DNA of 57,958 nucleotides from a virus (lineage: Duplodnaviria > Heunggongvirae > Uroviricota > Caudoviricetes): positions 1-57,958 of IMG/VR virus record IMGVR_UViG_2778261152_000005; one strand, 5' to 3'. Of the stretch, positions 15,524-32,292 are shown one piece after another. Position numbers and translations under genes: made by a program. Position 1 is the first letter of the stretch. The number at the start of each line of letters is the position of its first letter. Below the pieces are notes generated by a model. The model searched no databases, was not told where the DNA came from, and was given only the letters and a program-made list of their open reading frames with translations.

Positions 15524-15563
15524 TATTGATTTTCTTAATGGTGCCGATAATAGGAGTAAAACA
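15524..15563. repeat. Attachment-site direct repeat, copy 2 (boundary between elements A and B)
   Basis: TAATGGTGCCGATAATAGGAGTAAAACA shared with 2838-2872; 15539-15557 matches the tRNA-Thr 3' end. Confidence 0.7.
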
Positions 15564-15669
15564 CAGCAAATAACCACATGTATTTACTGTATTTTGTTTT
15601 TTACAAATTAGATAGATACCCGAATTGATACCCGTTTTGATTTCGCTCCCGATTGAGGAACAAAACGGG

Positions 15670-15909
15670 CTATTCAGTAGCCCTGTACCAAGCTTGCCAA
15701 CGGTACTTATCCAGCCGTAACTGGCGTAGGCATTCCGCTGTTTCGATGTCCGCCTGCAGGTCTTCGTCGCTATCCCGCCCGGCATCACTTGCCTTGCACG
15801 GTGGGTTCATCAAATCCTGGGATATTGTTGGCCGCATCGATTGCTCGCTGCCGCAACTGCACAGCGTGATCGTCAAAATCGCACTTAGTATGATTCGGGT
15901 CGTTAACAT
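15670..15909 (-). CDS. Putative o-spanin (Rz1-like), overlapping Rz in another frame
   Basis: ORF out of frame within and beyond the Rz gene; N-terminal signal-like segment with Cys (…ILTITLCSCGS…); lipobox atypical. Confidence 0.35.
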   Translation of the reverse strand: MLTTRIILSAILTITLCSCGSEQSMRPTISQDLMNPPCKASDAGRDSDEDLQADIETAECLRQLRLDKYRWQAWYRATE

Positions 15910-16144
15910 ATTTCACCACGTCGCGATAAATGGTCCGGTAAATCACTTTTCCTTCTGCGCTGGCCGCTGCCGCTTTCTGCTCACTAGTGGCGACGGCTTT
16001 CTCAGCCTTTTTGTTTTTCGCTGCATGCTCACTGTTTACCTTGTCGCTGTGCGCATACCAGCCTTTCAGATAACCCGCGTAAAAGGTAACAGCGACAAGC
16101 GCCAGGAGAGCGGCCAGCGCTAACAGCTTTGCTTTAATGGTCAC
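15785..16144 (-). CDS. i-spanin (Rz-like)
   Basis: GTG start at 16144 overlapping the endolysin TGA; N-terminal transmembrane helix (KAKLLALAALLALVAVTFYAGYL) then coiled-coil; track ORF extends to 16237. Confidence 0.6.
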   Translation of the reverse strand: MTIKAKLLALAALLALVAVTFYAGYLKGWYAHSDKVNSEHAAKNKKAEKAVATSEQKAAAASAEGKVIYRTIYRDVVKYVNDPNHTKCDFDDHAVQLRQRAIDAANNIPGFDEPTVQGK

Positions 16145-16680
16145 TGGTCTATCCCCCAGCACGTCAGTGCGCTTTCCTGATCCCGGCGCTCGACCTGACC
16201 ATAGCAACCATTCTTCTGGCCTTTGGTCAGTCTGCAATCGCGGCCGCCGTCTTTAATCCACCAGCGGATCGCTTCGCATGCACCTTTGCGGTCACCGGAA
16301 TTGATGCGCTTGTAGAACGTCGAGGGAAAACATTTACCGGGGCCGATGTTGTACGGGCAGAACGAAGCAATACCAGCTTTCTGCGGCTCAGTCAGCGGCA
16401 CCTTGATATTGCGGTCAACCCACGCCAGCGCCTTATCGCGTTCGATGGCGTTTACCTGGTCACATTTCGCTTGCGTCAGCTTCATGCCCTGCACTACCGG
16501 CTTACCATCGACCATCGTGGCGCCACGGCAAATTGTCCAGATACCGCCGCCGTCTTTATATGCCGTGAGATTGTTACCCTCTTTCTCATTCAGGAACTGG
16601 TCGAGAATAACCGATGCTGGCGCACCGGCAAGTACCAGTCCCAGAACGGCAGCGCTGAGCTTAGTCCTGTTGCTGGCCAT
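16141..16680 (-). CDS. SAR endolysin (T4-lysozyme-like)
   Basis: N-terminal signal-anchor-release segment and catalytic …[20 protein letters not shown]… motif; resembles phage 21 R. Confidence 0.8.
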
Positions 16681-16897
16681 AGAGCTGAGCCTCTTTACGA
16701 CGATCTTCTTTAATTTTGAAATACAAATTGGTCAGATAAGTAATCAGGCCAAGGACAATACTGGCCAGAACCCCGATAGCTGCCCACTGGCTAGGGCTGA
16801 CCTTATCGAGTAGCTGTAGTAACCAATAGCCGCCGCTACCAAGAGAAGTTACGTAGGAAGCGCCCGCCGCTATGTCTGAATGGTTGTTCATCCTCAT
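16661..16897 (-). CDS. Holin (phage 21 S pinholin-like)
   Basis: 78 aa, …[48 protein letters not shown]… closely resembles the S21 pinholin from memory; overlaps endolysin start. Confidence 0.75.
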
Positions 16898-16955
16898 GCC
16901 TCACCCCCGAGGGGAAATGTGTAAGTATTGGGGGTTGAGGTTAAGACAACGATGC

Positions 16956-16970
16956 GGTCGGAATCCTGAC
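16956..16970. promoter_or_regulatory. Copy a (imperfect) of the GGTCGGAATCCCGACC palindromic motif, upstream of the holin gene
   Basis: GGTCGGAATCCTGAC about 60 bp upstream of holin start. Confidence 0.4.
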
Positions 16971-17051
16971 TATCCAATATGTTCACCCGGATCGAAAAAT
17001 GCTACTCTTTGTTTTTATATAACTTATGTTCAATCCATGGCGAGCTAAACT

Positions 17052-18041
17052 ATGAACCGTATTGGCTGGATCTCATTAACTAGAGTAATAGCAGTAACAT
17101 TTATCGTAATGCTGCATTCTGCCTCATTCTATTTCAATAATTTTGATATTGGTGTTTTTGGCTGGGAAGTTGGGAATCTTGGTAATGCGGTTAGTAGATG
17201 GGGGGTTCCAGTTTTCATTATGCTATCAGGGGCTTTATTACTAAATAATAACAATTCGAATGACTACGCCTCTTTTTACAAACGCAGGCTCTCTAAGATA
17301 CTTATACCACTTATTTTCTGGTCTATCTTTTATTCTGCGATATGGCTTTTCCAGAATAAAGGTGACGCCACTATTTACGAAGCTTTAATAAATATTATAA
17401 GTGGACATCCGTTCTATCATATGTGGTTTATGTATATGATTCTTGGACTATACGCATTTACACCTTTGTTCAGGAAAATTGCATCTGTAATAGAAGATAA
17501 AGAAGCAACTTACTTAATCACCACTGTATTTATGCTTTCTGCCGTATGGATAAGTAATAAATACATAGCTGATGCTCATGATCCATTGTGGTTTTTCTGG
17601 TTCATTCAATACATTCCGTATTATTTTGCGGGGTATTATATTTCAAAATCATCTAGAAACATAAAGCCGACTCTTCTATTAATTGTAACGATTATAACCG
17701 TAGCAGCCACTTTTATAGCCACACATTACGCCTCGGTACAGTTTGGTAAGACTCAATACTTCTACGAACCGTTATCCCCTTTCATTATTATAATGTCATT
17801 GTGTGTATTTTGTTTATTCAAAAGGTGGAATTCAGGATTCTCCGACTCTCTCGCAAATTTAAGTTTAGGTGTTTATTTAATTCACCCTTTCTTTTTGCTG
17901 GCCTTCTTTAAGGTGTTTAAGGGGTTTGCAATGTCGTGGCCTCTTATGGGTTTTATTTGTGCGTGGATTATTTGCACAGTACTGTCTTTTGCTTCGACCT
18001 TCATTATCAAAAAAGTTAAATATTTAAATGTGATAGTGTAG
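17052..18041 (+). CDS. Acyltransferase family 3 membrane protein (O-antigen acetylase-like)
   Basis: 329 aa, multiple hydrophobic segments, N-terminal …RVIAVTFIVMLHS… typical of Oac/OafA-type acyltransferases; opposite strand to flanking phage genes. Confidence 0.75.
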   Translation: MNRIGWISLTRVIAVTFIVMLHSASFYFNNFDIGVFGWEVGNLGNAVSRWGVPVFIMLSGALLLNNNNSNDYASFYKRRLSKILIPLIFWSIFYSAIWLFQNKGDATIYEALINIISGHPFYHMWFMYMILGLYAFTPLFRKIASVIEDKEATYLITTVFMLSAVWISNKYIADAHDPLWFFWFIQYIPYYFAGYYISKSSRNIKPTLLLIVTIITVAATFIATHYASVQFGKTQYFYEPLSPFIIIMSLCVFCLFKRWNSGFSDSLANLSLGVYLIHPFFLLAFFKVFKGFAMSWPLMGFICAWIICTVLSFASTFIIKKVKYLNVIV

Positions 18042-18053
18042 TTTATTAATGAA

Positions 18054-18077
18054 GGGGGAGCAGATAACTCCCCCTTT
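18054..18077. terminator. Bidirectional hairpin terminator
   Basis: GGGGGAG-CAGATAA-CTCCCCC followed by TTT, between convergent acyltransferase and tail-fibre genes. Confidence 0.4.
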
Positions 18078-18093
18078 GGGTATTAGAAAGAGT

Positions 18094-20034
18094 TCAGACA
18101 AAATCAACTGCGGTATATCTAGATAAAAATCCACCCATACCCGAATATGAGATATTGGCGACCAAACTTACATCCGTAACGACAGTCGTAGAATTTATTG
18201 TCGTTGTGGATTTTTTTAATGTACCAGTCGCGGTTGTTACCTGCACAGCTACAGAACTAGCCCCCTGCTGGAAAACCTGCATATTGCCAATAAACCCACT
18301 ACCTTGCGCCATTCCAAATTTGCTGTATGCAGAACCACTCACTCCCATGTAGGGATAATGATATTTAGATAAATCGGCCTGCAATGAAACAGGATATGAG
18401 ATATTCACTGAATTTGCAGATGATAACATTGATAAATTACACCGCCAATGGATGTATTTACCTACTTGCCGGGCCTGAAGTGTATTTGTTACACTAGTGT
18501 TTAAATAGGTATTGTTTTTTGGAAAGTCTACCCATCCTGAATCGAACTGTTTAATTGGTGTCTTAATTGCAATCATCCCCCCGGCTAGAGCCCGAGGGCT
18601 ACCATCTGCACTTGGCTGAAGATATACGTCATCCCAAAGTAACTGAGCACTTCCCCCACCATCTAATGCGATGGCATGATGAAATCCTTCGTTTACACAT
18701 AACTCCTGTAGTTCAGAATATAAAATACCAAATGAAGATGATTGCCCTTGCACTTGAAGTATGCCGTAGTCTCCATTTGGGAAAACACCAAATACGGTTC
18801 TTGCGCTTATATCAGTTTGTGATGATACATCCTCATACGCCACACCGTTTTTAACAAGCAAATAATGCCAACCAAAACAACACCATGCACCTTCATTGAC
18901 ATAATCTTGTGCCGTCTTATTATCTGTATATGCCGCAATGGAAACTGAACCATCTTTCAATATCAATAAAGAGTAACGTCCATGTGTTTCTGTTTCGCCG
19001 CCGTCAAAATCCTGGTATGCAACCCCCCCTGATATCTGCAGCCCCCATGGTTTATACCCAACGCCATCTGTAATATTTGAATGCCAACCATCGCCATTAC
19101 AAATAGCAGGAGCTTTACTTTTTGAAGCATTCTCTGTTATTGTCATCGGCTGAACGTACATCACGCCAGATGAAAAATAAGGAGTATTACCATACTCCTT
19201 ATTAATATTTTGGGAGCCTTTCGGCACTGTAATAACGTGATAATAAACGCCACTGGAATGGATTTTCCTAATGCACTGTGATGACCCACTGCCATTCGTG
19301 ATATATCCACTTAAATTTTCAATCCCAAGGCTCAATTCATCAAGTTCATCCTGAACCGTTGTTCCATCAACAGTTCCAATTTTTGATGCCCCCGTTGGCT
19401 TTGCCAGTTCAATCATTACATCCGTTGCGGAACCTGACTGCGGTAAAACAGTTATCGGTTTACCCGCAGCGTTAAATGCCAGTAATTTGTTCGCACGTTG
19501 ATCAACTGGCGGGAGCACGTCAACATAGCTTTCTGGTACCCGAAGTGTGCGGTTTAAATTATTCTGCCCGGTTTGCTGAACATAGCGCTTTGTTGCCGCA
19601 TCCTGGTCGTTAACCGGATCGGCAAGCTCGGAAATCCGGTACCCTTCGGCATCAAACGGCCCACCAAACAAAGGTCGACGCAGTGCCAGTCCCAGATGGA
19701 TCCCATAACGTTGAATAGCCATCCATAGACGGTCGAAATCTTTATTTACCGTATCTGCAAGCAAGTCCCCGTTATCCTGATAATCAGTTAATCTGTAACT
19801 GGGGACAACACGTTCAATCATTACAACCGTGCCGGTAGCCGGAGCCGTGAGGAACGTAACATCACCGCCACCCACATTGCCTACGCCGGAGACAGAATAA
19901 CCGGACGTTAACTCCACACCGTTAAGTGTGACCTGAATGTCACTGGCACTGATAACATAAAACTCGAAAGGAAAAACGGTCGTCAGACCGTTGGCGTTGT
20001 AAATAATATAGGGCGTCTGGTTAGGTACCGACAT
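18094..20034 (-). CDS. Tail fibre / tailspike with T7 gp17-like N-terminal adaptor domain
   Basis: N-terminus (…GLTTVFPFEFYVISASDIQVTLNGVELTSGYSV…VVMIERVVPSYRLTDYQDNGDLL…) parallels the T7 gp17 N-terminal domain; remainder distinct. Confidence 0.7.
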   Translation of the reverse strand: MSVPNQTPYIIYNANGLTTVFPFEFYVISASDIQVTLNGVELTSGYSVSGVGNVGGGDVTFLTAPATGTVVMIERVVPSYRLTDYQDNGDLLADTVNKDFDRLWMAIQRYGIHLGLALRRPLFGGPFDAEGYRISELADPVNDQDAATKRYVQQTGQNNLNRTLRVPESYVDVLPPVDQRANKLLAFNAAGKPITVLPQSGSATDVMIELAKPTGASKIGTVDGTTVQDELDELSLGIENLSGYITNGSGSSQCIRKIHSSGVYYHVITVPKGSQNINKEYGNTPYFSSGVMYVQPMTITENASKSKAPAICNGDGWHSNITDGVGYKPWGLQISGGVAYQDFDGGETETHGRYSLLILKDGSVSIAAYTDNKTAQDYVNEGAWCCFGWHYLLVKNGVAYEDVSSQTDISARTVFGVFPNGDYGILQVQGQSSSFGILYSELQELCVNEGFHHAIALDGGGSAQLLWDDVYLQPSADGSPRALAGGMIAIKTPIKQFDSGWVDFPKNNTYLNTSVTNTLQARQVGKYIHWRCNLSMLSSANSVNISYPVSLQADLSKYHYPYMGVSGSAYSKFGMAQGSGFIGNMQVFQQGASSVAVQVTTATGTLKKSTTTINSTTVVTDVSLVANISYSGMGGFLSRYTAVDFV

Positions 20035-20054
20035 GGCTAGAACCTCTGGCAGGA

Positions 20055-21665
20055 TTAATAATCGACTTCGACCTCATGGTCTCCGTCACTTAACTGCCAA
20101 TGTTCCCGCGACTGTCCGGTCGGAATCCCGACCACTTTACCGATACGCACAGGCGTTGCACTAACCGCCCCCGCACCTGAATCAATGAAATCGTCTGGCT
20201 GTGTTGTCAGCGCCGGGTTGAAGTCACGCATTTGATCATACATTGGGCCATCCAGAACATCTGAGTGTGCCCACAAGAAACTAGACGAAAGCGGCGCTTC
20301 AAATGCGTCGAGGATGCGCTTCTGCTTATTCGTAACGCTGAATTCCTCCCTGACACCGCAGCCAGTTCCCTTAAGCGCCTGACGCAACAGCTTACCGGCG
20401 AATGACCCGGGGCCGTTTACTTCCACGCAGACAACGGGGATCTGATATTTAAGGACAAGCTCTTTAATCTGTATTACCTGACCGCCAGTTATTTTGTCAT
20501 TGGAGTCGAACTCCGCAAGGTCGCCCGTTAACGCCTGACAGATATGCCAGTAGAGGTGGCCTCGCGCATCCGTGAGTACCAGAGAAAACGCTGAAGCGTC
20601 GGCCTTCACCTTACCTGTTGCAACATCCCACCAGGCAACGGCACCGACAATCTGCACGTTACCAAGCCACATCGACGCGGTGCGGTTTGCATAGCGAATT
20701 TCCGGATGGATGTTGTACTCCCGGATGCGCTCAGGATCGAGACGAACGTCGCCAACGGGCTTGCTGTGCAGCTGATACTGGCTATCCCACTCGTTGACCG
20801 TACGACATTCTTTTCGACGCAGCTCTAACTCGTCATGATCAAATCGCTCAGGCCAGGCGCATCCGGCATAGAAATCAATAACCGTATCCGGTGCCGCAGC
20901 AAACTCCACGCCGTCGGCAGTCAGCTTATAGTCAACGTCTTCGACCAGCAGGCTGGCCGCTTTATGGATCCCTGCAAAAACGTACTCTGGCCGGAACGGA
21001 ATAACATAGCGCAGCTGCGTGGCGTCTTTCGCCTCGATGCGCTTTTCTTTCTCAAACAGCTTTATGGTCAGACAGTCAGCGCCTGCCGATTCCATTTCAT
21101 CGTAGAGGCTGTCATGTGTGTGCGGCGTACCAATAAAAAGTTTTCGCCCGCCGGGGATCAGGATGTGAGTCTGCTCGCTCAGGCGATAACGCAACTTTTC
21201 TCGCGCCTCCGGCGTCTGAATATTGCCCGGGACTTCCACGTCGTCATTCTGGCACTCGTTAGCGCGGGCGCCGGTGACGTTCGACAGGATACCTTTTGCG
21301 AACATGCTGGCGTTACGCATATCCAGCGAACCATTAACCCACCATTGTTCGACCGTGCCGATCCCGTCGGGCAACATGCCTTTTGTCAGGGGGTGGTTGC
21401 GTAAAACGTTCTGTGTATCGCGGCTGGTTTTGCGCGCTGTGGAGTCCGATTCTGACTGGTGCAGAATACGGTACTGGCGATCGCAGTAGTATCGCCAGGC
21501 ATTATAGACGCCCAAAATAGTGGATTTACCGAAACCACGGAAACAGCGAAGCACCGCGAGGTTTCCGCGATGCTCCAGCCAGTGGCAGGCTTGATAATGG
21601 CAGTCCGGAACGTCCCAGTTCATCCGCTCCGCCCACATTAAAAAGAAGGCGAGGAACGAAATCAT
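20055..21665 (-). CDS. Terminase large subunit
   Basis: 536 aa; Walker-A-like …RGFGKSTIL… near N-terminus; follows a small terS-like gene. Confidence 0.7.
   Translation of the reverse strand: MISFLAFFLMWAERMNWDVPDCHYQACHWLEHRGNLAVLRCFRGFGKSTILGVYNAWRYYCDRQYRILHQSESDSTARKTSRDTQNVLRNHPLTKGMLPDGIGTVEQWWVNGSLDMRNASMFAKGILSNVTGARANECQNDDVEVPGNIQTPEAREKLRYRLSEQTHILIPGGRKLFIGTPHTHDSLYDEMESAGADCLTIKLFEKEKRIEAKDATQLRYVIPFRPEYVFAGIHKAASLLVEDVDYKLTADGVEFAAAPDTVIDFYAGCAWPERFDHDELELRRKECRTVNEWDSQYQLHSKPVGDVRLDPERIREYNIHPEIRYANRTASMWLGNVQIVGAVAWWDVATGKVKADASAFSLVLTDARGHLYWHICQALTGDLAEFDSNDKITGGQVIQIKELVLKYQIPVVCVEVNGPGSFAGKLLRQALKGTGCGVREEFSVTNKQKRILDAFEAPLSSSFLWAHSDVLDGPMYDQMRDFNPALTTQPDDFIDSGAGAVSATPVRIGKVVGIPTGQSREHWQLSDGDHEVEVDY
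20118..20133. promoter_or_regulatory. Copy b of the GGTCGGAATCCCGACC motif, inside the 3' end of terL about 85 bp upstream of the tail-fibre gene
   Basis: Perfect 16-nt palindrome. Confidence 0.45.
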
Positions 21666-22000
21666 TTTTCGCCTTTCTGAAGGCGTTTGATAATGGCGGC
21701 CGCTTCACGTTCAGCCTCATTGACCCGCTGACCCAGTTCGAATTCTTCATCAACTTCACCGGGTTTCGGGGGAACTCCGCCGCGTGTATGCATACCAATA
21801 AGAGAATGCACCTTAATCAGCAGCGTCAGCGAAGCCGCAGCGTTCTTCTTGTCCCAGTAGCGGTCGCCGCGCTCCTGCTTTGTCAATGCATTGACGCGTT
21901 TATTACCGCCAGCCCAGTTGTCCGGGTCGGCTTCTTCGAGCACCACGTCAGTGAGTTTATCGCTCAGAGCAGTAAGGCGTGTTTTGTAATCCTGATGCAT
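21662..22000 (-). CDS. Putative terminase small subunit (T7 gp18-like position)
   Basis: 112-aa ORF overlapping terL start by 4 nt. Confidence 0.4.
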   Translation of the reverse strand: MHQDYKTRLTALSDKLTDVVLEEADPDNWAGGNKRVNALTKQERGDRYWDKKNAAASLTLLIKVHSLIGMHTRGGVPPKPGEVDEEFELGQRVNEAEREAAAIIKRLQKGEK

Positions 22001-22045
22001 AAAAAAGCCCCGTAGTGAATACAGGGCTATGATGGCGCGGGTTTG

Positions 22046-22061
22046 AGGTCGGAATCCCGAC
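22046..22061. promoter_or_regulatory. Copy c of the GGTCGGAATCCCGACC motif, upstream of the terS-like gene
   Basis: Perfect palindrome in the 64-bp intergenic gap. Confidence 0.45.
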
Positions 22062-22064
22062 CGA

Positions 22065-24971
22065 TTACCGCATACCAGGATCTACCTGATTTATCAGCGG
22101 CGCAATCCAGAAAAGATTGTTCCCTGGCAGCAGGGTACGCACGTTGTGCAGAACACGATCACCAGCATCGCCATTCAGCACTCCAGCGGTCACGTCGGTG
22201 ATGGTATCTAACAAGCCAAACGTCGGGCCGAGTGCGGAACCGATAAAACCACGGCTGGCGTAACGCGACTGTGTGCCGGTGCCGAGCAGCGCTCCCAGCC
22301 CGACCATACCACCGGAAGCTTTTTCAGCCATGTTGTTGTATTCCATTAGTGGGCCGAGAATGCCGGAGCGGTCAACACCCTCTATCACCAGTTTTTCAGG
22401 CGACCAGTCAACCTCACGCCCGTTAGCGGTTTCTTTCAGTGCATACGTCAGCGAGCCCAGCCCTATCTGGAATGCGGTACCGTAGTAAAACTGCGCCGAC
22501 CCTTCCTGTAACCCGCCCAGCGTTGCACGGTTGTATGACGCCGTAGCAAACGATTTAAACTGGAAAACCGTTTTGCCAAGCGGTGTGCTGGCCCACAGAG
22601 GCGTATCGCCAATGCCGGGGGTGATAACAGTATTGTTAACGTCTTTCAGCACAGCAGACTGAAACACGCCGGCGACATGCTGATCGTCCCATTTTTCAAA
22701 ATTACCAATATGCCAGCCGTCAATCACCTCGCCGTGCTTCTGAAATTCAGTGCGGATACGCGCGGCCATATTGTCGTTAATGCCGAGCTTCGCCAGGCGA
22801 CGGCCTGCGAACGAACCGGAAAGAATACCGTCAGACGTGATCATGCCGTTAACCGATTTGTTCATATCGTCGAAATGCCCCATCAGCGTGAGCTTGCCGA
22901 ACATATCGGTAACGCGCTCCATACCGGCTTCCACCGCTGTGGTACGTGCGGAACTGTCCACCAGATCGCCCATCGTACGCGCGCGGGTATGCAGTATTGT
23001 TTCCAGCCCCACGGCCATCTTTTTCTGTTCGGCTTTACTCGCAACCCATGCAGGGGATTTGGTTATCATAGCGCCATAGCCGCGCGTAACATTGCGGAAT
23101 CCGTTCACCATCACGCCACGCGCCAGATCAGGTATTGCCGACACAGTCATACCCCCCAGTTTGGTGGCAAAGTTAGCACTGCGCAGAAACGCACCGGCGC
23201 GAACAAAGAACGACGACGGATCGTCGGGCATACCGTACGTACCGACAAGGCGGTCGCGCAACGCAGTAATATCGCGCAGGTCGTTATCGCGGGCTTTTGC
23301 CAGTTTTGCCTGATCTTTGGGGCGGGAACGCATCAACGCGTCGTACTCGTCCTGGATATCCTTAAGCTGTTTTTCCAGCGTCTTGTTACCAAAAGTGCGG
23401 GTCAGCTCAACCTCTGCGGACGCTTCGCGAATATGGCGCTGCAGGACATAGTTGGCGTCACTCTCCAGGTAGTCTTTCATCAGGCGATCGGGAACACTGA
23501 GCGTACGGCCTTTGGTGCTGCCAGCAGATTTGACCATAAACACATTAGCGAAATCCTGCGGGATTTTGGCACCCACAATTTTGTTAATAGTGGCGTCCGC
23601 CGTAATTTCGGCCTCTTCTCTGGACATGGTTTTTTCGCCGCGCGACCACCAGTCAACCAACATGTCGCGGAATTTATCGCGCTCGTTGACGATTTTCCCG
23701 ACCTTGTACACGCGCGGGAAATAGCTGGTCTGCCCGATGGCCTTCAGTTCTTCATCCGGTGGTAACAGTCCTAGTTTCTGCTGTGCCACCTTCACACGGT
23801 TAACGACGGTGCGCATTGCCTGCGCCGTTTCCTGCACTACCGGGTTGGCATGTACATCACCGCTGCGCATGGCGCTACCCACTTCTTCACGGAACGACGC
23901 AAAACTCAGGTCACCGCCGTCAGCCTTATATTTTGCATACGCCTGTTTGTTGGTCACGACTACCGCTGCTTCTTCACGGCGCCAGCCGCGAACGCGGGTT
24001 TCCGCTGCAATGGGTGTTTCAATACCACGCGCATTCCCCTGGAGCGTGAAGTTATTCTCTGCCAGCTCCAGCGCTGTACGGCGTGCTGTTTTTGAAGGGG
24101 ATTCTATCAGGCGGGTGATCGGCGTCAGGTAACTGCCTGCCTTGCGCGCGGCCTTGCCGAATGGCCCCCCCGCAACCGGGGTTAAATCTTCGAGTGTCGC
24201 TTCGCGGATCCGCGCTGCGCCCACACTCCCCCCATCAGGAAGCGAAGCCGCAGCGGTATCCACCGGCGATGTTACGCTCATATTATCGAGCGCCTCCGCC
24301 ACTTCCCGCGTGGCCGCAGTGCGAACAGAAGGTGAGAGCGCCGCGCCAGCAGCAGCAAATACGCCACTCATCAACGCACCAGCTGCGACGTGGGAAGCAC
24401 TTTCGCCCCACGTACGAGTGATCTGCTGGTTATTCAGCGCAACTTCGCTCGCTGCGGTTGCAGCCGCACCGATTGCAACCTGTGACGCAATGCGCGCTGC
24501 CGCACCGCCCTGTGCGCCGGGGATAAACATAGATGCGACGGTAACCGGGTCGACAACGCCCGCAGCAATACTGGCTAACACACCCTCACCGCCAGCCTCA
24601 GAAAGCACGCGGCGGTCTTCGTTTTCATCGTCAATCTGCTGTTTCAGCCAGGCTGTTTCTTCCGGAGAGCGGGAATCCGCAAACGCCGCCCCCCATTGTT
24701 CGTACCCGTGCAGCTCGTTTTTATCCGTATATGGGTTATACCCTTCAACCGGCTCAAACTGCTTAGCCGGTCGGAACATCTGACCCAGCAGGTTATTCTG
24801 GCGGAATGCAGCGCCCCACACCGACGGCTCGTCCTGCTGAGGTGCCGGGTTGGTTCCTTCTGGCAATGGGACATCAAATCCGGATGATGCCGCCAGCACA
24901 TTACCTGCCGGGATGAATCCGTTATTCAATTCTTCAGGAGTGGCGTATACCGGCATTATTCTGTGCTCCAT
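22065..24971 (-). CDS. Internal virion / ejection protein (968 aa)
   Basis: Large ORF in the T7 gp15/gp16 position; start may be at a downstream Met. Confidence 0.5.
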   Translation of the reverse strand: MEHRIMPVYATPEELNNGFIPAGNVLAASSGFDVPLPEGTNPAPQQDEPSVWGAAFRQNNLLGQMFRPAKQFEPVEGYNPYTDKNELHGYEQWGAAFADSRSPEETAWLKQQIDDENEDRRVLSEAGGEGVLASIAAGVVDPVTVASMFIPGAQGGAAARIASQVAIGAAATAASEVALNNQQITRTWGESASHVAAGALMSGVFAAAGAALSPSVRTAATREVAEALDNMSVTSPVDTAAASLPDGGSVGAARIREATLEDLTPVAGGPFGKAARKAGSYLTPITRLIESPSKTARRTALELAENNFTLQGNARGIETPIAAETRVRGWRREEAAVVVTNKQAYAKYKADGGDLSFASFREEVGSAMRSGDVHANPVVQETAQAMRTVVNRVKVAQQKLGLLPPDEELKAIGQTSYFPRVYKVGKIVNERDKFRDMLVDWWSRGEKTMSREEAEITADATINKIVGAKIPQDFANVFMVKSAGSTKGRTLSVPDRLMKDYLESDANYVLQRHIREASAEVELTRTFGNKTLEKQLKDIQDEYDALMRSRPKDQAKLAKARDNDLRDITALRDRLVGTYGMPDDPSSFFVRAGAFLRSANFATKLGGMTVSAIPDLARGVMVNGFRNVTRGYGAMITKSPAWVASKAEQKKMAVGLETILHTRARTMGDLVDSSARTTAVEAGMERVTDMFGKLTLMGHFDDMNKSVNGMITSDGILSGSFAGRRLAKLGINDNMAARIRTEFQKHGEVIDGWHIGNFEKWDDQHVAGVFQSAVLKDVNNTVITPGIGDTPLWASTPLGKTVFQFKSFATASYNRATLGGLQEGSAQFYYGTAFQIGLGSLTYALKETANGREVDWSPEKLVIEGVDRSGILGPLMEYNNMAEKASGGMVGLGALLGTGTQSRYASRGFIGSALGPTFGLLDTITDVTAGVLNGDAGDRVLHNVRTLLPGNNLFWIAPLINQVDPGMR

Positions 24972-27676
24972 GAAAAGTAATTTTTAACCCTGTCCATGCG
25001 CTCGTTATGCAGACGTTTGTACTGCTCATCCAGCGCGCGGTGTTTATCTTTGAAACCGCGAATATCCTGTCCTCGCGTAAGCTCATCCTGTGCACGCTCC
25101 TCCCGCTCCTGCTGCATTTTCTTGTAAGGTTCCCAGTCCTCAAGCGACGGCTTCCAGCGCACCGGGCGCCCGTACTTATCGTAGAACGGCTGCACGGATT
25201 CGATGCCATCCTTATCCTTCATTCGCACCATGATGGCATAATCCCCCTGGCGCGCAGTAAGAACGTCGGGTGTAATTTCCAGATCACCACCGATACGGCT
25301 TTCAGGGGTTTTTGTATCGACAAGCGGCGCTTTTCCCGATGTGATCCCGAGCTGTGTCGGGCTGGTAGTTATCGTTTCTTTGCGGTCACCGTACATCAAT
25401 TGCTCTTTTTCGGCTTTCCACTGCGCCGCCTGCCACCCTGACGGACCATAGTCATAAAGCGCCTCCGGAGCGTACTTCATGAATTTAGCGTCACCGTTTA
25501 CCTCGCTGATACTCCATGTGCGGGCTACCTGCTGGTTGGTCATCTTCTTCGCCGCGTCAGCGTTACCGCCAGTTGTACGGTAGTTAATGTCATACAACGC
25601 CTGATAGTCATTACGGAAGCGTGCCGCCTCCGGCGTCTGGTCATCAGCTGAAGGATCAAACCGGAACCACTGCGACATGCTGCTCACCGCGGAATCCATC
25701 GCCTTGCTGCGGTCTTTTTTATACTCCTTAGTGCTCTGGGTTGACGCCAGCTGCGCTTTGAGTGCATCGGTCTGGTTGTAGGTCAGGTTCTGCGCCTGCT
25801 CGATAGCCGCATCAGACGCCATACCGGAATCGGTCAGCTGTTTGACCGTCAGGTAAAAACCCTGCATATCCTTCGGCATATCGCCGACAGACGCGGGGTC
25901 TGTATCGTACAGGCGATTAAACAACTCTGCGCCCTGCCGTACCGCTTCCGGGCTGCGGGCGCGGGAAATTGCCGAAAGCTGCGTTGTCACCTGCGACGGA
26001 ATAATGCCCGTCTGCGCTACCTGCTGCACAATTCCGTCATGTGTTCCTGCGTCATTAATACAGAAATTTTGAGCGGTATCGGTAGCATCGGCGGCTTTCT
26101 GCATGGATTTATTTGACGGGTCAAGTTTCTCCCCCGTTGAAAGCGCCTCGTTAAAACGACGGGCATCACGCTGCGCCTGAATTGCCGCATTACTTTTTTG
26201 TACAAGCGCTCCCAGCTTACCGTAAGCATCGAGTTTCAGGGCGTAATCTGGATCGTTGACTTCCGGCTTCACTTTGACGAGTTCTGCCTGCTGCTCTGCG
26301 GGAGATACGTACTGGATGGCCTGGAAGGTACGCGCATTATCAATGGCTATGTCCAGTTGCTTTACGGCTTTTTCCCCCTGCTCCCCATAAGCAAACATAA
26401 TCGACGCCTTATCTGGCATTGCATCAGGCACTTCACCGTTATTCAACTGTGCCATAGTATTATTGAGGATAGGATCGATTTGCTGGCGCAGGGCTGTACG
26501 CTGTTCACGGATCTGACTTTCGGCGATATTGTCGATTTTATTGACAGATACCGGATCTAGCCCCGTTTTATTTTTACGGTACCGTGACAGCCATCCGCGC
26601 GTTTCCGCCGGCAGCTTGCTGATAAATGCCGCTTCTGTGATTTCGCCCTTACGCGGGTCGCCCACTTTAGCAATCAACGTATCAACATTACCCATTCCCC
26701 AGTTATAAGCAGCGCCAGCCAGCGTTTCGGAACCATATTTGCCGTACAGTTGGTTAGCGTAATCGCTCGCGAGTAGCGCATTCTGATCTTCATCCGCCGG
26801 GTTGTATTCTACGCCGCGTTTAGCCGCCAGCTCTTTGCCTGTGCTCGGCATTAACTGAAACTTACCCTGAGCTCTCTCACCAGATTTTGTTACAGGCCCC
26901 TCAACCAGACTGCCGTCGGCTTTAAAATGCTTACCGCCCGACTCCACAATACCGATAGCGCGCATATCAAGTCCGCCGCTATCTTTAATCGGGAAGTCAC
27001 CATTAAGCCAGCCCTGCGGATTGGTTACCGCATAGTTCTGCGCACGCTGTTCCATAGCTCGCTGATCAGCCTCCGATATCGCCTGTAGAATTTGCTCGGA
27101 AGACCAGCCCTGCGCCTGGCCATAAAGCTCAATGGAGTGCTTACGCGCCCCCCGAATCAACGCCGCCGCCTGCGAATCGTCAAATGCACCGGCTTCCTGC
27201 TCGACTGATGATTTCACCGTTGCGTCAAGCTGCTGACGCTGTGCCTGTTCGGTTTGACTACGCTCAAAGCTGTTATAAGTGCTGGTTCGTCGAATCTGCC
27301 CGGCTTTCCATTGCGCATCAAAATACTGCAACTGGCTGGCAGGAACGCGTTTGCGGGCTTCTTCATAGTCGGAAGAATCCAGCTTATCCATATCAAGACC
27401 GACGCCGGAAGACTTGAACCCCTGACGGGTCGTAAGTGCGCCGGTCTCCGGGTTTTCCCAGCGGTCGCTGGACTTTGAGTCCAGGTCAAGAAGAATGGCC
27501 TGTGTTGCCGCCACATCCGCTTTATCCTGCACGCGCTGCACATCTTCAGCAGTCTGTCCAATGGCAGCGCCAAGCCCTGCGATCGCATTGCCGATTGCGC
27601 CAGCGTTCCCCACGCTGACACGGGTCGGATTCACCTGCGGCGTAACGTTGCCAAAATTACCTGTTGGTATTCTCAC
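24956..27676 (-). CDS. Internal virion protein with lytic transglycosylase domain (906 aa)
   Basis: …GIVESGGKHF…GKFQLMPSTGKELAAKRGV…AYNWGMGNV… resembles the SLT domain, as in T7 gp16-type proteins. Confidence 0.65.
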   Translation of the reverse strand: MRIPTGNFGNVTPQVNPTRVSVGNAGAIGNAIAGLGAAIGQTAEDVQRVQDKADVAATQAILLDLDSKSSDRWENPETGALTTRQGFKSSGVGLDMDKLDSSDYEEARKRVPASQLQYFDAQWKAGQIRRTSTYNSFERSQTEQAQRQQLDATVKSSVEQEAGAFDDSQAAALIRGARKHSIELYGQAQGWSSEQILQAISEADQRAMEQRAQNYAVTNPQGWLNGDFPIKDSGGLDMRAIGIVESGGKHFKADGSLVEGPVTKSGERAQGKFQLMPSTGKELAAKRGVEYNPADEDQNALLASDYANQLYGKYGSETLAGAAYNWGMGNVDTLIAKVGDPRKGEITEAAFISKLPAETRGWLSRYRKNKTGLDPVSVNKIDNIAESQIREQRTALRQQIDPILNNTMAQLNNGEVPDAMPDKASIMFAYGEQGEKAVKQLDIAIDNARTFQAIQYVSPAEQQAELVKVKPEVNDPDYALKLDAYGKLGALVQKSNAAIQAQRDARRFNEALSTGEKLDPSNKSMQKAADATDTAQNFCINDAGTHDGIVQQVAQTGIIPSQVTTQLSAISRARSPEAVRQGAELFNRLYDTDPASVGDMPKDMQGFYLTVKQLTDSGMASDAAIEQAQNLTYNQTDALKAQLASTQSTKEYKKDRSKAMDSAVSSMSQWFRFDPSADDQTPEAARFRNDYQALYDINYRTTGGNADAAKKMTNQQVARTWSISEVNGDAKFMKYAPEALYDYGPSGWQAAQWKAEKEQLMYGDRKETITTSPTQLGITSGKAPLVDTKTPESRIGGDLEITPDVLTARQGDYAIMVRMKDKDGIESVQPFYDKYGRPVRWKPSLEDWEPYKKMQQEREERAQDELTRGQDIRGFKDKHRALDEQYKRLHNERMDRVKNYFSWSTE

Positions 27677-27678
27677 GG

Positions 27679-28146
27679 TTATTTACTCCCTGCTTTTTTC
27701 CAGCCGTTATATGCCGTTCCGCCTGCGGATAGCAGGGAACTACCAGCGTTAATGTATCCAGAGGTAGACGCATTATTCCCACTGATACGATCGGCCTGAG
27801 CCTGTGCATTTAGTCGGGCGCTCTGATTCGTACCATTCAAAATGGTCTGATACGCATCCTGCTCAGCATCACCAACGATGTCAGACTGAATACGCAGCGC
27901 AGTCCCTTCGCCGGTATCAACTCCGGACGCCGCTAATGATGCATTCGCCGCCGCGGCCTGTGCACGCCCGGCCTTGCGAATACGTTCAGCTTCAACTTTC
28001 GCCGCAGCTTTAGACGCCTCTGCATCGGCTTCAGCCTGAGCAGCCTGGTAATTAGACATTTTCTTCTGCTGTTGCCCGCTGTAAACCGCTCCGCCAGCAG
28101 CAAGGACAGAAGACGCAACAAGAGCAACCTCAACACCAGTACACAT
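27679..28146 (-). CDS. Putative internal virion protein (155 aa)
   Basis: N-terminal hydrophobic segment then Ala/Gln-rich region; T7 gp14-like position. Confidence 0.4.
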   Translation of the reverse strand: MCTGVEVALVASSVLAAGGAVYSGQQQKKMSNYQAAQAEADAEASKAAAKVEAERIRKAGRAQAAAANASLAASGVDTGEGTALRIQSDIVGDAEQDAYQTILNGTNQSARLNAQAQADRISGNNASTSGYINAGSSLLSAGGTAYNGWKKAGSK

Positions 28147-28148
28147 CG

Positions 28149-28598
28149 TTACACCTCTTTGGAATAAAGCAGACCGGTACGCGACAGACCGAGACGTGAA
28201 TACAAATCACCGGTGCGCTCTTCATGTACGCCTGTGGTGATACCCATATTGATAAGCACGGCGCCGTGTCTTTCCGCCCATGCAATGAATGATTTCGCAA
28301 GCCGCGGGGCAGCTGTGCCGCCGCGGTACTCAGGCGCAATAAAAAGCCCGTATTCAAACGCCATTAGCTGACGGCTAAACCATTGCTCAGCGATCCCGCC
28401 GGCCAGCCAGCCAATTACAGCACCTTTTTTTTCGGCCACCAGCAGACAGCCAGCAGGTGATGAAATAAGGGTGCGGGCGAGTTCAGCGCATTTTTCTTCA
28501 TCGAATGGCGAATTCTGTGAATAGCGGGACTCGATATACATCCGGGTTCCCAGTTCGATCAGCGCCGGGATATCCCCGGCCGTTGCGTTACGTACCAT
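28149..28598 (-). CDS. GNAT-family N-acetyltransferase within the virion module
   Basis: Start taken at internal Met (28598); …GAVIGWLAGGIAEQWFSRQLMAFEYGLFIAPEYRGGTAAPRLAKSFIAWAERHG… GNAT-like; track ORF extends to 28805. Confidence 0.6.
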   Translation of the reverse strand: MVRNATAGDIPALIELGTRMYIESRYSQNSPFDEEKCAELARTLISSPAGCLLVAEKKGAVIGWLAGGIAEQWFSRQLMAFEYGLFIAPEYRGGTAAPRLAKSFIAWAERHGAVLINMGITTGVHEERTGDLYSRLGLSRTGLLYSKEV

Positions 28599-28599
28599 G

Positions 28600-30588: not shown

Positions 30589-30589
30589 G

Positions 30590-31153
30590 TCAGAACCTCG
30601 ACTCATACGTTGGGTAACCGCCAAGCTCTTCCGGTGGGTCTTCCTGACCATCGATGGCTTTTGCCTGTTTGAGCAGGAATGCGGCCTCTTGCGCCAGGCT
30701 ATCGCGCAGGCTGGTTGAGCCTGTCACCGCGTATGCCAGCTTAGACTGCATCATCATTTCAGCTACATCTACCAGCGCAGGACCCCAGGTAGACTCATCT
30801 TCATTGCGGAAGATATAGCGCAAACGAATCACATCAACATTTGCCAGCAGCCGGCTCCCTTCAATTCGATAATCGATATTATCCTGCTGTTCACCAATGG
30901 ACAGGACGCGAATATGGTCACCTGGTAAAGAAAACTGATAACCATATCCAAAGACAGGCGCTGCGCTTACAGGGGACAGTACAACGCGTTTTATTGCGCA
31001 GTTCCACGGGTGAGCACGGAGTAATTTATTACGGACAGTGGGGTAAAGGTTGGCGCAAAGACGGGCATGATCCGTGTCTTCGTCGAAATCATTTATCGGG
31101 TGAGCACCCAGCGCCAGAAGTGCGTTTGAACAGATAGAGACACTCGAAGTCAT
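30590..31153 (-). CDS. Tail tubular protein A-like (T7 gp11 position)
   Basis: 187-aa ORF directly downstream of capsid gene and terminator. Confidence 0.5.
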   Translation of the reverse strand: MTSSVSICSNALLALGAHPINDFDEDTDHARLCANLYPTVRNKLLRAHPWNCAIKRVVLSPVSAAPVFGYGYQFSLPGDHIRVLSIGEQQDNIDYRIEGSRLLANVDVIRLRYIFRNEDESTWGPALVDVAEMMMQSKLAYAVTGSTSLRDSLAQEAAFLLKQAKAIDGQEDPPEELGGYPTYESRF

Positions 31154-31170
31154 GGCATAACCTCAGATGA

Positions 31171-31196
31171 AAAAAGGCCGGGGGTACCCCCCGGCA
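31171..31196 (-). terminator. Rho-independent terminator after the capsid gene
   Basis: Minus-strand GCCGGGGGG-TA-CCCCCGGC stem followed by CTTTTTT, 15 bp after capsid stop (analogous to T7 T-phi). Confidence 0.55.
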
Positions 31197-31210
31197 AACA
31201 CACCAGCGGC

Positions 31211-32122: not shown

Positions 32123-32271
32123 AACAATCACTCCAGAAAATATCGCCTGCTGGGTTGTCGGTTGCCCGGCCCGATTAACACAATGCGCGTGGCGCTTACG
32201 CACTGCGGGAAAATTCAGTTATCCGGCGTCCCCGCCGGGCTGGTTGTGGGGAGATTGTTAGCGAGGTGTGC

Positions 32272-32287
32272 GGTCGGAATCCCGACC
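32272..32287. promoter_or_regulatory. Copy d of the GGTCGGAATCCCGACC motif, about 150 bp upstream of the capsid gene
   Basis: Perfect palindrome immediately downstream of the scaffold-gene terminator. Confidence 0.45.
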
Positions 32288-32292
32288 AAATG

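What the first reader, a model, noticed from the sequence alone, without database searches (positions are those of the whole stretch)
17052..18041. O-antigen acyltransferase moron between lysis cassette and tail fibre
A family-3 acyltransferase on the opposite strand to the flanking phage genes, with a bidirectional terminator after it, is typical of lysogenic-conversion genes that alter surface polysaccharide and block superinfection.
Basis: partly seen in the sequence, partly recalled or inferred. Interest (0 to 1): 0.45.

Follow-up and report, generated by a model that had tools for sequence, protein, structure and literature searches.

The report
Prophage surface-sugar acyltransferase beside tail fibre
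An E. coli prophage carries a membrane acyltransferase gene back-to-back with its own sugar-cutting tail fibre, which most likely decorates the cell's surface polysaccharide so related phages can no longer attach; this is a familiar trick seen here with an unusual tail-fibre enzyme.

Summary
Window 17052-18041 (+) is an intact 329-aa ORF and a full-length Acyl_transf_3 (AT3) protein (Pfam E=5.5e-44). It lies antisense between the holin-endolysin-Rz cassette and the tail-fibre gene of a 35-kb temperate T7-like E. coli prophage. A GC-rich hairpin fills the 52-bp convergent spacer.

The AT3 motifs are present (R11-X10-H22, S59-G60, R79-x-x-K82). It has no SGNH domain, so it is an "AT3-only" protein like Sf6 Oac and phiV10 Oac.

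Those two proven serotype-converting phages, and BTP1, show the same layout: receptor-binding gene convergent with the acyltransferase.

Sister prophages with the same backbone carry gtrABC or other AT3 genes in this slot. Each comes with a different tail-fibre distal domain. Backbone homology breaks at 16973 and resumes at about 19390.

The low-GC cassette is therefore AT3, hairpin and distal tail fibre together. That distal part folds as a NAGPA-type phosphodiester glycosidase and keeps the catalytic DGGGS motif. All five AT3 lineages at 48-100% identity sit next to NAGPA tail proteins, in at least four phage backbones.

Verdict: a lysogenic-conversion and superinfection-exclusion acyltransferase, a new member of a known kind. 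The target glycan (O-antigen or capsule) and the acyl group are not shown.

The parts
16974..17051 (+). Cassette-specific 78-nt region upstream of the acyltransferase. It presumably holds the promoter and a weak GAG-type ribosome-binding site.
   Evidence: Backbone homology to three sister prophages (L100, L103, L106) stops at exactly 16973. Homology to the L006 cassette starts only at 17060. No sigma-70 consensus site was found here. It contains a single GATC, at 16990.
17052..18041 (+). AT3-only membrane acyltransferase, 329 aa (WP_096935384.1).
   Evidence: Pfam PF01757 E=5.5e-44. Motifs R11-X10-H22, S59-G60 and R79-x-x-K82 align with Sf6 Oac R11/H22/S52-G53/R73..R76. The AF2 model has pLDDT 93.4 and is all-helical. 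dN/dS is about 0.10 against the 74% homologue.
18052..18076 (.). GC-rich hairpin between the convergent stop codons; a putative two-way transcription stop.
   Evidence: Structurally equivalent but sequence-different hairpins occur at L006, L007, L092 and L094.
18094..19390 (-). Distal, exchangeable part of the tail fibre (about residues 215-646): helical neck, NAGPA-type phosphodiester glycosidase domain and a C-terminal beta-sandwich.
   Evidence: Pfam NAGPA E=1e-15. AF2 model Foldseek hits to NAGPA catalytic domains, E=1.3e-12, prob 1.00. GC3 0.33. It shares 79% DNA identity with L006 together with the AT3 gene.
18649..18663 (-). DGGGS motif (tail-fibre residues 458-462), the invariant sugar-phosphate recognition and catalytic loop of NAGPA enzymes.
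   Evidence: The motif is defined in PMC13474241. It is conserved in the NAGPA tail proteins of L006, L007, L092, L094 and L098.
19391..20034 (-). N-terminal, backbone-specific anchor domain of the tail fibre (T7 tail-fibre N domain).
   Evidence: Pfam PF03906 residues 8-159. Backbone homology with sister prophages resumes at 19387-19707. GC3 0.49.
15785..16897 (-). Lysis cassette (Rz spanin 15785-16237, endolysin 16141-16680, P21-S-type holin 16661-16897). It lies downstream of the tail fibre on the same strand, so late transcripts must either pass the hairpin and run antisense through the acyltransferase gene, or start from a separate promoter.
15537..50728 (.). The whole prophage (about 35.2 kb), bounded by 21-bp direct repeats AATGGTGCCGATAATAGGAGT; integrase at 49384-50646.
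   Evidence: It is colinear with temperate Yersinia phage YeP4.

Best explanation
The gene encodes an AT3-only integral-membrane O-acyltransferase carried as a lysogenic-conversion moron. Three steps are inferred from family knowledge. In the lysogen it is transcribed from its own strand. It takes an acyl group (most likely acetyl, from cytoplasmic acyl-CoA) across the inner membrane, using the TM1 Arg/His pair and the cytoplasmic-loop Arg/Lys motif. It transfers the group to a sugar of a surface polysaccharide during or after export.

From the genomic linkage I infer that the acceptor is the same polysaccharide that the prophage's own tail fibre recognises and probably cleaves. That fibre carries a NAGPA-type phosphodiester glycosidase domain. 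The polysaccharide is most likely the O-antigen, and less likely a phosphate-containing capsule.

Acylation would sterically block binding or cleavage by that fibre. The expected consequences are protection of the lysogen from superinfection by the same and related phages, less re-adsorption of released progeny, and protection of the lysogen's glycan from leaky tail-fibre expression. This is what has been shown for BTP1 GtrC/OafB, Sf6 Oac and phiV10 Oac.

The distal tail fibre and the acyltransferase move between phages as one low-GC 'attack and protect' cassette. The hairpin between them keeps the two convergent transcription units apart.
For: Shown by sequence:
- Full-length AT3 domain.
- The R/K-X10-H and RXX[RK] motifs named in the AT3 review PMC9558356 are present, and align with Sf6 and phiV10 Oac.
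- Confident helical model; its only solved-structure relative is the transmembrane acetyl-CoA:glucosaminide acetyltransferase HGSNAT (prob 0.96, TMq 0.45, E 0.14).
- Intact ORF, identical on 10 contigs. dN/dS is about 0.10.

Context:
- phiV10 has the same order, tail fibre then oac on the opposite strand then holin-endolysin-Rz, and its record states that Oac acetylates the O-antigen and gives superinfection immunity.
- In Sf6 the tailspike and oac are convergent with a terminator between them.
- BTP1 gtrC is convergent to its tailspike and protects against it.
- The same backbone carries gtrABC (L100), or other AT3 genes (L103, L106), in the same slot, each with a different distal RBP domain. 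YeP4 has an empty slot.
- Backbone homology breaks at 16973 and at about 19390.
- AT3 and distal fibre share low GC3 (0.36 and 0.33, against about 0.6). They are co-inherited with L006 as one 2.45-kb block at 79% identity.

Linkage:
- All five AT3 lineages at 48-100% identity sit convergent to NAGPA-domain tail proteins, in a T7-like podovirus, an epsilon15/phiV10-like podovirus and two kinds of siphovirus.
- A 41%-identical NAGPA fibre is followed by a convergent AT3-SGNH gene.

The fibre looks enzymatically competent: NAGPA fold at E=1e-12, with the invariant DGGGS loop retained.
Against: - No experiment was done, and the acceptor glycan, sugar position and acyl group are all unknown.
- Identity to characterised phage Oac proteins is only family-level (27% to phiV10 Oac, 18% to Sf6 Oac).
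- No promoter was detected upstream, and the upstream regions are unrelated among all homologous loci.
- The hairpin lacks U-tracts.
- One NAGPA-fibre siphophage (L098) has no acyltransferase next to it, so the pairing is not obligatory.
- The NAGPA domains of the siphovirus group are only about 30-36% identical to the window's, while their AT3s are 49-61% identical. Strict co-specificity is therefore not proven.
- The genomic contexts of more distant AT3 homologues gave no polysaccharide signal.
Confidence: 0.65

Rival explanations
1. Same enzyme and same exclusion logic, but the acceptor is not the O-antigen. It would instead be a capsule (K-antigen) or another exopolysaccharide containing glycosyl-phosphate linkages, which is the real receptor of the NAGPA-type tail fibre.
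For: The fibre's enzymatic domain is a phosphodiester glycosidase with an intact DGGGS loop, which implies a sugar-1-phosphate-linked polymer. From memory, such linkages are commoner in E. coli group 2/3 capsules and teichoic-acid-like polymers than in O-antigens. In cultured phages this domain was found only in phages of Gram-positive hosts with teichoic acids. Prophage acetyltransferases also associate with capsule type in Klebsiella (PMC13123978). AT3 proteins are known to acylate capsules as well (PMC9558356).
Against: The same slot in sister prophages holds gtrABC, which is specific for O-antigen modification. The closest architectural precedents (phiV10, Sf6, BTP1) all act on O-antigen. 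Carriers include Shigella dysenteriae and Citrobacter, where O-antigen is the usual outer glycan.
Confidence: 0.22
2. The acyltransferase mainly benefits the host (serotype change, evasion of antibody, complement or predators) and has no significant effect on phage adsorption. Its linkage to the tail fibre would only reflect a convenient recombination hotspot at the end of the late operon.
For: The slot is a general hotspot with sharp recombination junctions. Between window and L006 the AT3 (74% aa) has diverged more than the distal fibre next to it (dN 0.17 against 0.07), which would fit partly independent evolution. One NAGPA fibre lacks an adjacent AT3.
Against: Five independent AT3 lineages keep the NAGPA partner across four or more unrelated backbones, which a neutral hotspot does not predict. 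In every tested precedent the modification blocks the cognate phage.
Confidence: 0.08
3. The acylation creates or tunes the receptor rather than masking it. In this reading the fibre needs the acylated glycan, or the gene is decaying cargo with no current function.
For: In the sister prophage L103 an AT3 is paired with a GDSL-esterase-type fibre. That is a pairing in which the fibre would remove acyl groups, so acyl-dependent recognition exists in this phage family.
Against: A lysogen making its own phage's receptor would invite superinfection and progeny loss. The ORF is intact, identical on 10 contigs and under purifying selection, and its catalytic motifs are retained.
Confidence: 0.05

Closest known systems
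Oac of Escherichia phage phiV10 (Uetakevirus), an O157-antigen O-acetyltransferase giving superinfection immunity
   Same: An AT3-only protein of similar size (338 against 329 aa). The gene order and orientation are identical: tail fibre, then oac on the opposite strand, then holin-endolysin-Rz. Both are low-GC (0.31 against 0.35). The close homologue P0002 (74%) sits in exactly the phiV10 oac slot of a phiV10-like prophage whose fibre N-terminus is 89% identical to phiV10's.
   Different: Only 27% identity (E=2e-19). The phage backbone differs (T7-like order, YeP4-like). The fibre's distal domain is NAGPA-type and unrelated to phiV10's, so a different acceptor is expected.
Oac (OacA) of Shigella phage Sf6
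   Same: An AT3-only protein of 333 aa, convergent with the enzymatic tailspike, with a terminator in the short spacer. The critical residues align: R11, H22, S-G, and R73 with R79. Acetylation blocks the phage's own endorhamnosidase (PMC9558356).
   Different: 18% identity in the multiple alignment. Sf6 oac lies next to int/att, whereas here the gene lies between the fibre and the lysis genes. The tailspike is a beta-helix endorhamnosidase, not a NAGPA fold.
GtrC(BTP1)/OafB of Salmonella prophage BTP1
   Same: A prophage acetyltransferase convergently transcribed to the tailspike gene. It protects the lysogen's O-antigen from that tailspike, blocks superinfection and limits re-adsorption (PMC4413052). 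This is the best mechanistic precedent.
   Different: OafB is an AT3-SGNH fusion, whereas the window protein has no SGNH domain. An AT3-SGNH gene does follow a 41%-identical NAGPA fibre in L099.
gtrABC O-antigen glucosylation operons of temperate phages (P22 type)
   Same: They occupy the very same slot, in the same orientation, in sister prophages of this backbone (L100). The logic is the same: modify the receptor of the adjacent RBP.
   Different: The chemistry differs (glucosylation via Und-P-glucose, three genes) and the protein families are unrelated.

Membership tests
Acyltransferase family 3 (AT3, Pfam PF01757) | Full-length match to the family profile above the curated threshold | tested here: met
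   151 bits against a 31-bit cutoff, E=5.5e-44, residues 5-319 on profile 2-324/326.
Acyltransferase family 3 (AT3, Pfam PF01757) | R/K-X10-H motif in the first transmembrane helix (PMC9558356) | tested here: met
   R11-X10-H22. H22 is invariant and R11 at least 90% conserved in 43 homologues. Both align with Sf6 and phiV10 Oac.
Acyltransferase family 3 (AT3, Pfam PF01757) | RXXR motif in the first cytoplasmic loop (Sf6 Oac R73/R75/R76) | tested here: inconclusive
   R79 aligns with Oac R73 and is invariant. The second position is K82, not R (it is R in P0006 and phiV10). This is a conservative variant, R-x-x-K, in a K/R-rich loop between predicted TM2 and TM3.
Acyltransferase family 3 (AT3, Pfam PF01757) | Polytopic all-helical membrane fold (about 10 TM helices) | tested here: met
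   The AF2 model has pLDDT 93.4 and pTM 0.92 and consists only of helices. The hydropathy scan gives 8 clear TM segments, and I inferred about 2 more by eye from the model helices for roughly 10 in all. The best solved fold relative is HGSNAT, but only weakly (E 0.14, prob 0.96, TMq 0.45).
Acyltransferase family 3 (AT3, Pfam PF01757) | Transfers an acyl group to a carbohydrate acceptor outside the cytoplasm | not testable with these tools
   Needs biochemistry, or NMR/MS of the lysogen's polysaccharides.
AT3-only subclass (Oac/Lag-1/WbaK type, as opposed to AT3-SGNH OafA/OafB type) | No fused periplasmic SGNH domain | tested here: met
   The protein is 329 aa and the AT3 domain covers residues 5-319. 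There is no PF19040 hit.
Moron (independently transcribed extra gene in a prophage, Hendrix/Juhala sense) | Inserted between genes that are adjacent in related phages | tested here: met
   YeP4 (TerL 75% identical) goes from the fibre genes straight to the lysis genes with no opposite-strand gene. Sister prophages carry different cargo in the slot.
Moron (independently transcribed extra gene in a prophage, Hendrix/Juhala sense) | Nucleotide composition different from the surrounding phage genes | tested here: met
   GC 0.35 and GC3 0.36, against a backbone GC of about 0.53-0.56 and GC3 of about 0.6. The low-GC block also includes the distal tail fibre.
Moron (independently transcribed extra gene in a prophage, Hendrix/Juhala sense) | Own promoter and own terminator | tested here: inconclusive
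   The downstream hairpin is present and structurally conserved, but has no U-tract. No sigma-70 consensus was found in the 154-nt upstream spacer.
Moron (independently transcribed extra gene in a prophage, Hendrix/Juhala sense) | Expressed from the repressed prophage | not testable with these tools
   Needs a transcriptome of the lysogen.
Phage serotype-converting / superinfection-excluding O-antigen acetyltransferases (Sf6 Oac, phiV10 Oac, BTP1 OafB) | Encoded by a temperate phage, adjacent and convergent to the receptor-binding protein gene | tested here: met
   The prophage has an integrase and att repeats. The stop codons are convergent and 52 bp apart. The layout is the same in phiV10, Sf6 and BTP1.
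Phage serotype-converting / superinfection-excluding O-antigen acetyltransferases (Sf6 Oac, phiV10 Oac, BTP1 OafB) | Close sequence relationship (orthology) to a characterised member | tested here: not met
   Identity is 27% to phiV10 Oac and 18% to Sf6 Oac. The best hit in 50,697 phage records is 30% (a Vibrio phage). The relationship is at family level only.
Phage serotype-converting / superinfection-excluding O-antigen acetyltransferases (Sf6 Oac, phiV10 Oac, BTP1 OafB) | The acceptor is the O-antigen, and the modification blocks adsorption of the cognate phage | not testable with these tools
   Inferred from synteny and from gtrABC in the same slot. The fibre's substrate is unknown.

The most novel reading that the evidence does not exclude
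The acyltransferase and the NAGPA-type distal tail fibre form a co-transferred 'cut and shield' cassette specific for a glycosyl-phosphate-linked surface polymer of Enterobacteriaceae. The fibre would then be a phosphodiester-glycosidase class of phage depolymerase that I did not find in any cultured phage of a Gram-negative host, and O-acylation would be its dedicated antidote. The cassette would hop between podo- and siphovirus backbones across E. coli, Shigella and Citrobacter.
Probability: 0.35. Interest if true: 0.5.

Novelty: new member of a known kind. Interest (0 to 1): 0.3.

Why it matters
Phage-borne O-acyltransferases change serotype, vaccine epitopes and phage susceptibility. This one is rare: it is absent from 5,426 complete E. 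coli genomes at megablast sensitivity. It is nevertheless shared at 98% identity between E. coli and Citrobacter sedlakii.

The most useful results are practical. The slot between the tail fibre and the lysis genes of this widespread enterobacterial prophage family reliably holds paired 'receptor enzyme plus receptor-modifying gene' cassettes. These could be mined to predict which glycan modification defeats which phage depolymerase. The NAGPA-type fibre, with its intact catalytic loop, is a candidate new depolymerase chemistry for phages of Gram-negative hosts.

None of this overturns current understanding. It extends a textbook mechanism.

Tried and rejected
- Megablast of the locus against 50,697 phage records found nothing. 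Against complete E. coli genomes it hit only the holin and lysozyme.
- The genome-contig scan (one genome per species) returned only relatives at 38% identity or less, so it could not name the host. The host was identified from the PaoD flank and cluster names instead.
- Neighbours of distant chromosomal AT3 homologues (L020, L021, L023, L029) were scanned to look for polysaccharide clusters. The result was a mixed bag (TauD, ABC transporter, PMT-type glycosyltransferase, polysaccharide deacetylase) and gave no usable signal.
- The sequence search of the AT3 against PDB gave nothing. The fold search gave only a weak HGSNAT match.
- I looked for a Dam/OxyR-type phase-variation signature like that of gtr operons. 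There is only one GATC in the upstream spacer, so I rejected this.
- The promoter scan found no site upstream of the gene.
- Rfam found no RNA family anywhere in the window, and there are no tRNAs.
- PADLOC found no defence-system hits in the neighbouring island.
- A literature search for 'phosphodiester glycosidase' plus 'tailspike' found no papers.
- The pseudogene or chance-ORF reading was rejected because of the intact motifs, the identical copies on 10 contigs and dN/dS of about 0.1.
Full report
**1. Observation**

It is 329 aa and starts at the first ATG, three bases after an in-frame TAA.
- It is a full-length member of Pfam PF01757 Acyl_transf_3 (E=5.5e-44, 151 bits against a 31-bit cutoff).
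- It also matches PHROG 3333 'O-acetyltransferase'. No NCBIfam model names it.
- Every neighbouring phage gene is on the - strand. On one side are the Rz spanin (15785-16237), endolysin (16141-16680) and P21-S-type holin (16661-16897). On the other are a tail fibre (18094-20034) with a T7-type N-terminal domain and a NAGPA 'phosphodiester glycosidase' domain, then a T7-like large terminase and internal virion proteins.
- GC drops to 0.33-0.39 across the gene, against about 0.5-0.59 in the lysis and packaging genes.

The 52-bp spacer between the convergent stop codons holds a perfect 9-bp GC-rich inverted repeat (18052-18076). It folds at -17.8 and -18.6 kcal/mol on the two strands. It has no real T-run on either side, and the consensus terminator scan did not report it. 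'Bidirectional terminator' is therefore a reasonable but unproven label.

**2. Host and element**

The left flank encodes PaoC/PaoD, identical to E. coli proteins. The acyltransferase is WP_096935384.1, 'acyltransferase family protein [Escherichia coli]', and a 98% variant occurs in Citrobacter sedlakii.

A 21-bp direct repeat (AATGGTGCCGATAATAGGAGT) occurs at 2846, 15537 and 50708. These copies delimit two elements:
- a 12.7-kb low-GC island with its own integrase;
- the 35.2-kb prophage proper (15537-50728), with its integrase at 49384-50646.

The prophage has T7-like structural gene order. Its closest cultured relative is the temperate Yersinia phage YeP4 (TerL 75% identical), with which it is colinear.

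The exact acyltransferase protein is on 10 public contigs. It was not found in 5,426 complete E. coli genomes or 50,697 phage records at megablast sensitivity.

**3. The protein**

I aligned the protein with its homologues and with the two classic AT3-only phage enzymes, Sf6 Oac and phiV10 Oac. R11, H22, S59-G60 and R79 are invariant.
- R11-X10-H22 is the TM1 R/K-X10-H motif. R79-x-x-K82 corresponds to the Oac R73..R76 'RXXR' motif of the first cytoplasmic loop. Both motifs are named as functionally essential in the AT3 review PMC9558356. The second basic residue here is K rather than R.
- In a 43-sequence alignment H22 is invariant and R11 at least 90% conserved.
- AlphaFold2 gives a confident all-helical polytopic model (pLDDT 93.4, pTM 0.92).
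- No bacterial AT3 structure turned up in PDB by sequence or fold search. The best fold match is the human transmembrane acetyl-CoA:alpha-glucosaminide N-acetyltransferase HGSNAT. The match is weak (prob 0.96, TMq 0.45, E 0.14), and I use it only as consistent with transmembrane acyl transfer.
- There is no SGNH domain, so this is an 'AT3-only' enzyme.
- dN/dS against the 74%-identical homologue is about 0.10. dS is about 1.7 and close to saturation, so the figure is approximate.

**4. Comparative context: the key evidence**

(a) Known systems with the same layout.
- phiV10 has the same gene order: tail fibre, then oac on the opposite strand, then membrane protein, holin, endolysin and Rz. Its record states that Oac 'acetylates the host O-antigen; functions in superinfection immunity'.
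- Sf6 has its endorhamnosidase tailspike convergent with oac, with an annotated terminator in the 33-bp gap.
- In BTP1 the acetyltransferase GtrC/OafB is convergent to the tailspike gene. It protects the lysogen's O-antigen from that tailspike, blocks superinfection and limits re-adsorption (PMC4413052).

(b) Sister prophages with the same backbone. These share the 536-aa TerL, the 963-aa internal protein and lysozyme; L100 and L103 also share the P21-type holin. Each carries different cargo in the same slot:

| Locus | Host | Distal fibre domain | Cargo in the slot |
|---|---|---|---|
| L100 | E. hormaechei | beta-helix | gtrA-gtrB-gtrC |
| L103 | C. koseri | GDSL-esterase | 375-aa AT3 |
| L106 | E. 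ludwigii | BNR/sialidase-type | 374-aa AT3 |
| YeP4 | Yersinia | - | no opposite-strand gene |

Backbone DNA homology to all three sister prophages stops at exactly 16973. It resumes at 19387-19707, inside the tail-fibre gene.

(c) The variable cassette is therefore 16974 to about 19390. It comprises 78 nt of upstream sequence, the acyltransferase, the hairpin and tail-fibre residues of about 215-646.
- Composition agrees. GC3 is 0.36 for the AT3 and 0.33 for the distal fibre. It is 0.49 for the fibre's N-terminal anchor and about 0.6 for the backbone.
- An epsilon15/phiV10-like prophage (L006/L096; named Shigella dysenteriae for the fibre cluster) shares one continuous 2.45-kb block at 79% identity. 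It runs from the AT3 start codon to fibre residue of about 177, and nothing else is shared.

(d) AT3-NAGPA linkage.
- Every close AT3 lineage for which context was available is convergent to a NAGPA-domain tail protein. These are the window and the homologues at 74%, 61%, 51% and 49% identity.
- The backbones are a T7-like podovirus, a phiV10-like podovirus, a lambdoid siphovirus with GpJ, and a second siphovirus type.
- Each locus has its own, sequence-unrelated GC-rich hairpin in a 26-52 bp spacer. Four of the five are strong (about -11 to -20 kcal/mol); the L094 one is weak (-7.4 kcal/mol, z -1.3).
- A 41%-identical NAGPA fibre is followed by a convergent AT3-SGNH gene.
- One 45%-identical NAGPA fibre in a siphophage has no acyltransferase after it. 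The pairing is therefore strong but not obligatory.

**5. The partner fibre**

- The AF2 model of the distal part has mean pLDDT 73.6, rising to about 76-96 across most of the central domain. It matches vertebrate NAGPA catalytic domains and bacterial DUF2233 at Foldseek E of about 1e-12, prob 1.00, TMt 0.6-0.75.
- A C-terminal beta-sandwich follows. It has only insignificant resemblance to adenovirus fibre knobs.
- The strictly invariant DGGGS sugar-phosphate recognition loop, which contains the catalytic Asp (PMC13474241), is present at residues 458-462. It is also present in the NAGPA tail proteins of L006, L007, L092, L094 and L098.
- In the cultured-phage collection this domain was found only in phages of Gram-positive hosts: SPbeta YomE, SPO1 gp2.43, Staphylococcus phages, and the Curtobacterium phage Ayka tail spike.
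- The fibre is thus plausibly an active glycosidase for a sugar-1-phosphate-linked polymer. Which E. coli polymer that is cannot be told from the window.

**6. Mechanism proposed**

Shown by sequence:
- an intact, conserved AT3-only acyltransferase;
- located in a moron slot;
- physically and evolutionarily coupled to the enzymatic distal tail fibre.

Inferred from family knowledge and the three precedents:
- In the lysogen the enzyme acylates (probably acetylates) the surface polysaccharide that the fibre recognises or cleaves.
- This blocks superinfection and re-adsorption, and shields the lysogen's glycan from leaky fibre expression.

Inferred with less confidence: the polysaccharide is the O-antigen. 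In favour, gtrABC occupies the same slot and the precedents all act on O-antigen. Against, the phosphodiester chemistry leaves a phosphate-containing capsule as a serious rival (about 0.2).

One structural consequence is noted but not resolved. The lysis genes lie downstream of the fibre on the - strand. Late transcription must therefore either read through the hairpin and run antisense across the acyltransferase gene, which would also silence it during lytic growth, or restart from a separate promoter. A promoter-like site on the - strand lies at 17816-17787 inside the gene.

**7. What did not work**

- No promoter was found upstream, and the upstream regions of all homologous loci are unrelated.
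- There is no Dam/OxyR phase-variation signature.
- The contexts of distant homologues were uninformative.
- The species-representative genome scan missed all close relatives.
- Rfam, tRNA and PADLOC scans returned nothing.

**8. Verdict**

The gene is a new, sequence-divergent member of a well-known class of prophage lysogenic-conversion acyltransferases. It is at most 30% identical to any phage-encoded AT3 in the collection.

Three points are modestly new:
- its obligate-looking partnership with a NAGPA-type tail-fibre enzyme across several phage backbones;
- the sharply bounded cassette structure;
- the polymorphic slot in this temperate T7-like prophage family.

Interest is low to moderate (0.3).

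Noticed in passing
window 2846-2866, 15537-15557, 50708-50728: There are three copies of a 21-bp direct repeat, AATGGTGCCGATAATAGGAGT; the first two share 30 bp. They bound two tandemly integrated elements at one att site: a 12.7-kb low-GC island and the 35.2-kb prophage. From memory the repeat resembles the 3' end of tRNA-Thr (thrW). It is unannotated in E. coli genomes, and no tRNA is present in the window.
   Followed up: partly
window 2867-15536: This is a low-GC (0.34-0.45) island. It has its own tyrosine integrase (2922-4286), a Dit-like tail protein gene (4367-5044), a serine resolvase/invertase (13672-14229) and several ORFs with no family hit. It is absent from an otherwise 99.9%-identical locus (L002) and present in L001 and L004. 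It has no PADLOC hits. It could be a satellite or a degraded prophage sharing the att site.
   Followed up: partly
L100 7323-10132; L103 7390-8517; L106 7222-8346: The slot between tail fibre and holin in sister prophages of the same backbone holds gtrABC or other AT3 genes. Each is paired with a different distal fibre domain: beta-helix, GDSL esterase, or BNR/sialidase-type. The GDSL-esterase fibre paired with an acyltransferase is an intriguing 'remove acyl / add acyl' couple.
   Followed up: partly
window 18094-19390 (-), DGGGS at 18649-18663: The tail fibre carries a NAGPA-type phosphodiester glycosidase domain with an intact catalytic loop. In the cultured phage collection this domain appears only in phages of Gram-positive hosts, so it may be an uncharacterised depolymerase chemistry for enterobacterial phages.
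   Followed up: partly
window 17816-17787 (- strand): A good sigma-70-like site (TAAACA-18-TATAAT, 10/12) lies inside the acyltransferase gene on the antisense strand and points towards the lysis genes. It could be a lysis-cassette or antisense promoter, or an artefact of AT-richness.
   Followed up: no
window 15670-15909 (-): A 79-aa ORF begins MLTTRIILSAILTITLCSCG, a lipobox-like sequence. It overlaps the 3' end of the Rz gene in another frame and is a likely o-spanin (Rz1 equivalent) in an 'overlapped' arrangement.
   Followed up: no
window 15537-50728: The prophage has T7-like structural gene order (portal, capsid, tubular tail proteins, internal proteins, TerS/TerL, fibre, lysis) together with a family A DNA polymerase, a VapE-like primase/helicase, an SNF2 helicase and an integrase. 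No RNA polymerase hit was seen. It is colinear with temperate Yersinia phage YeP4. Its TerL cluster has more than 1,000 members across Enterobacter, Salmonella, Citrobacter and Klebsiella.
   Followed up: partly
window 52231-55779 (+): A 1182-aa ORF just outside the prophage's right att repeat has no Pfam or PADLOC match.
   Followed up: no
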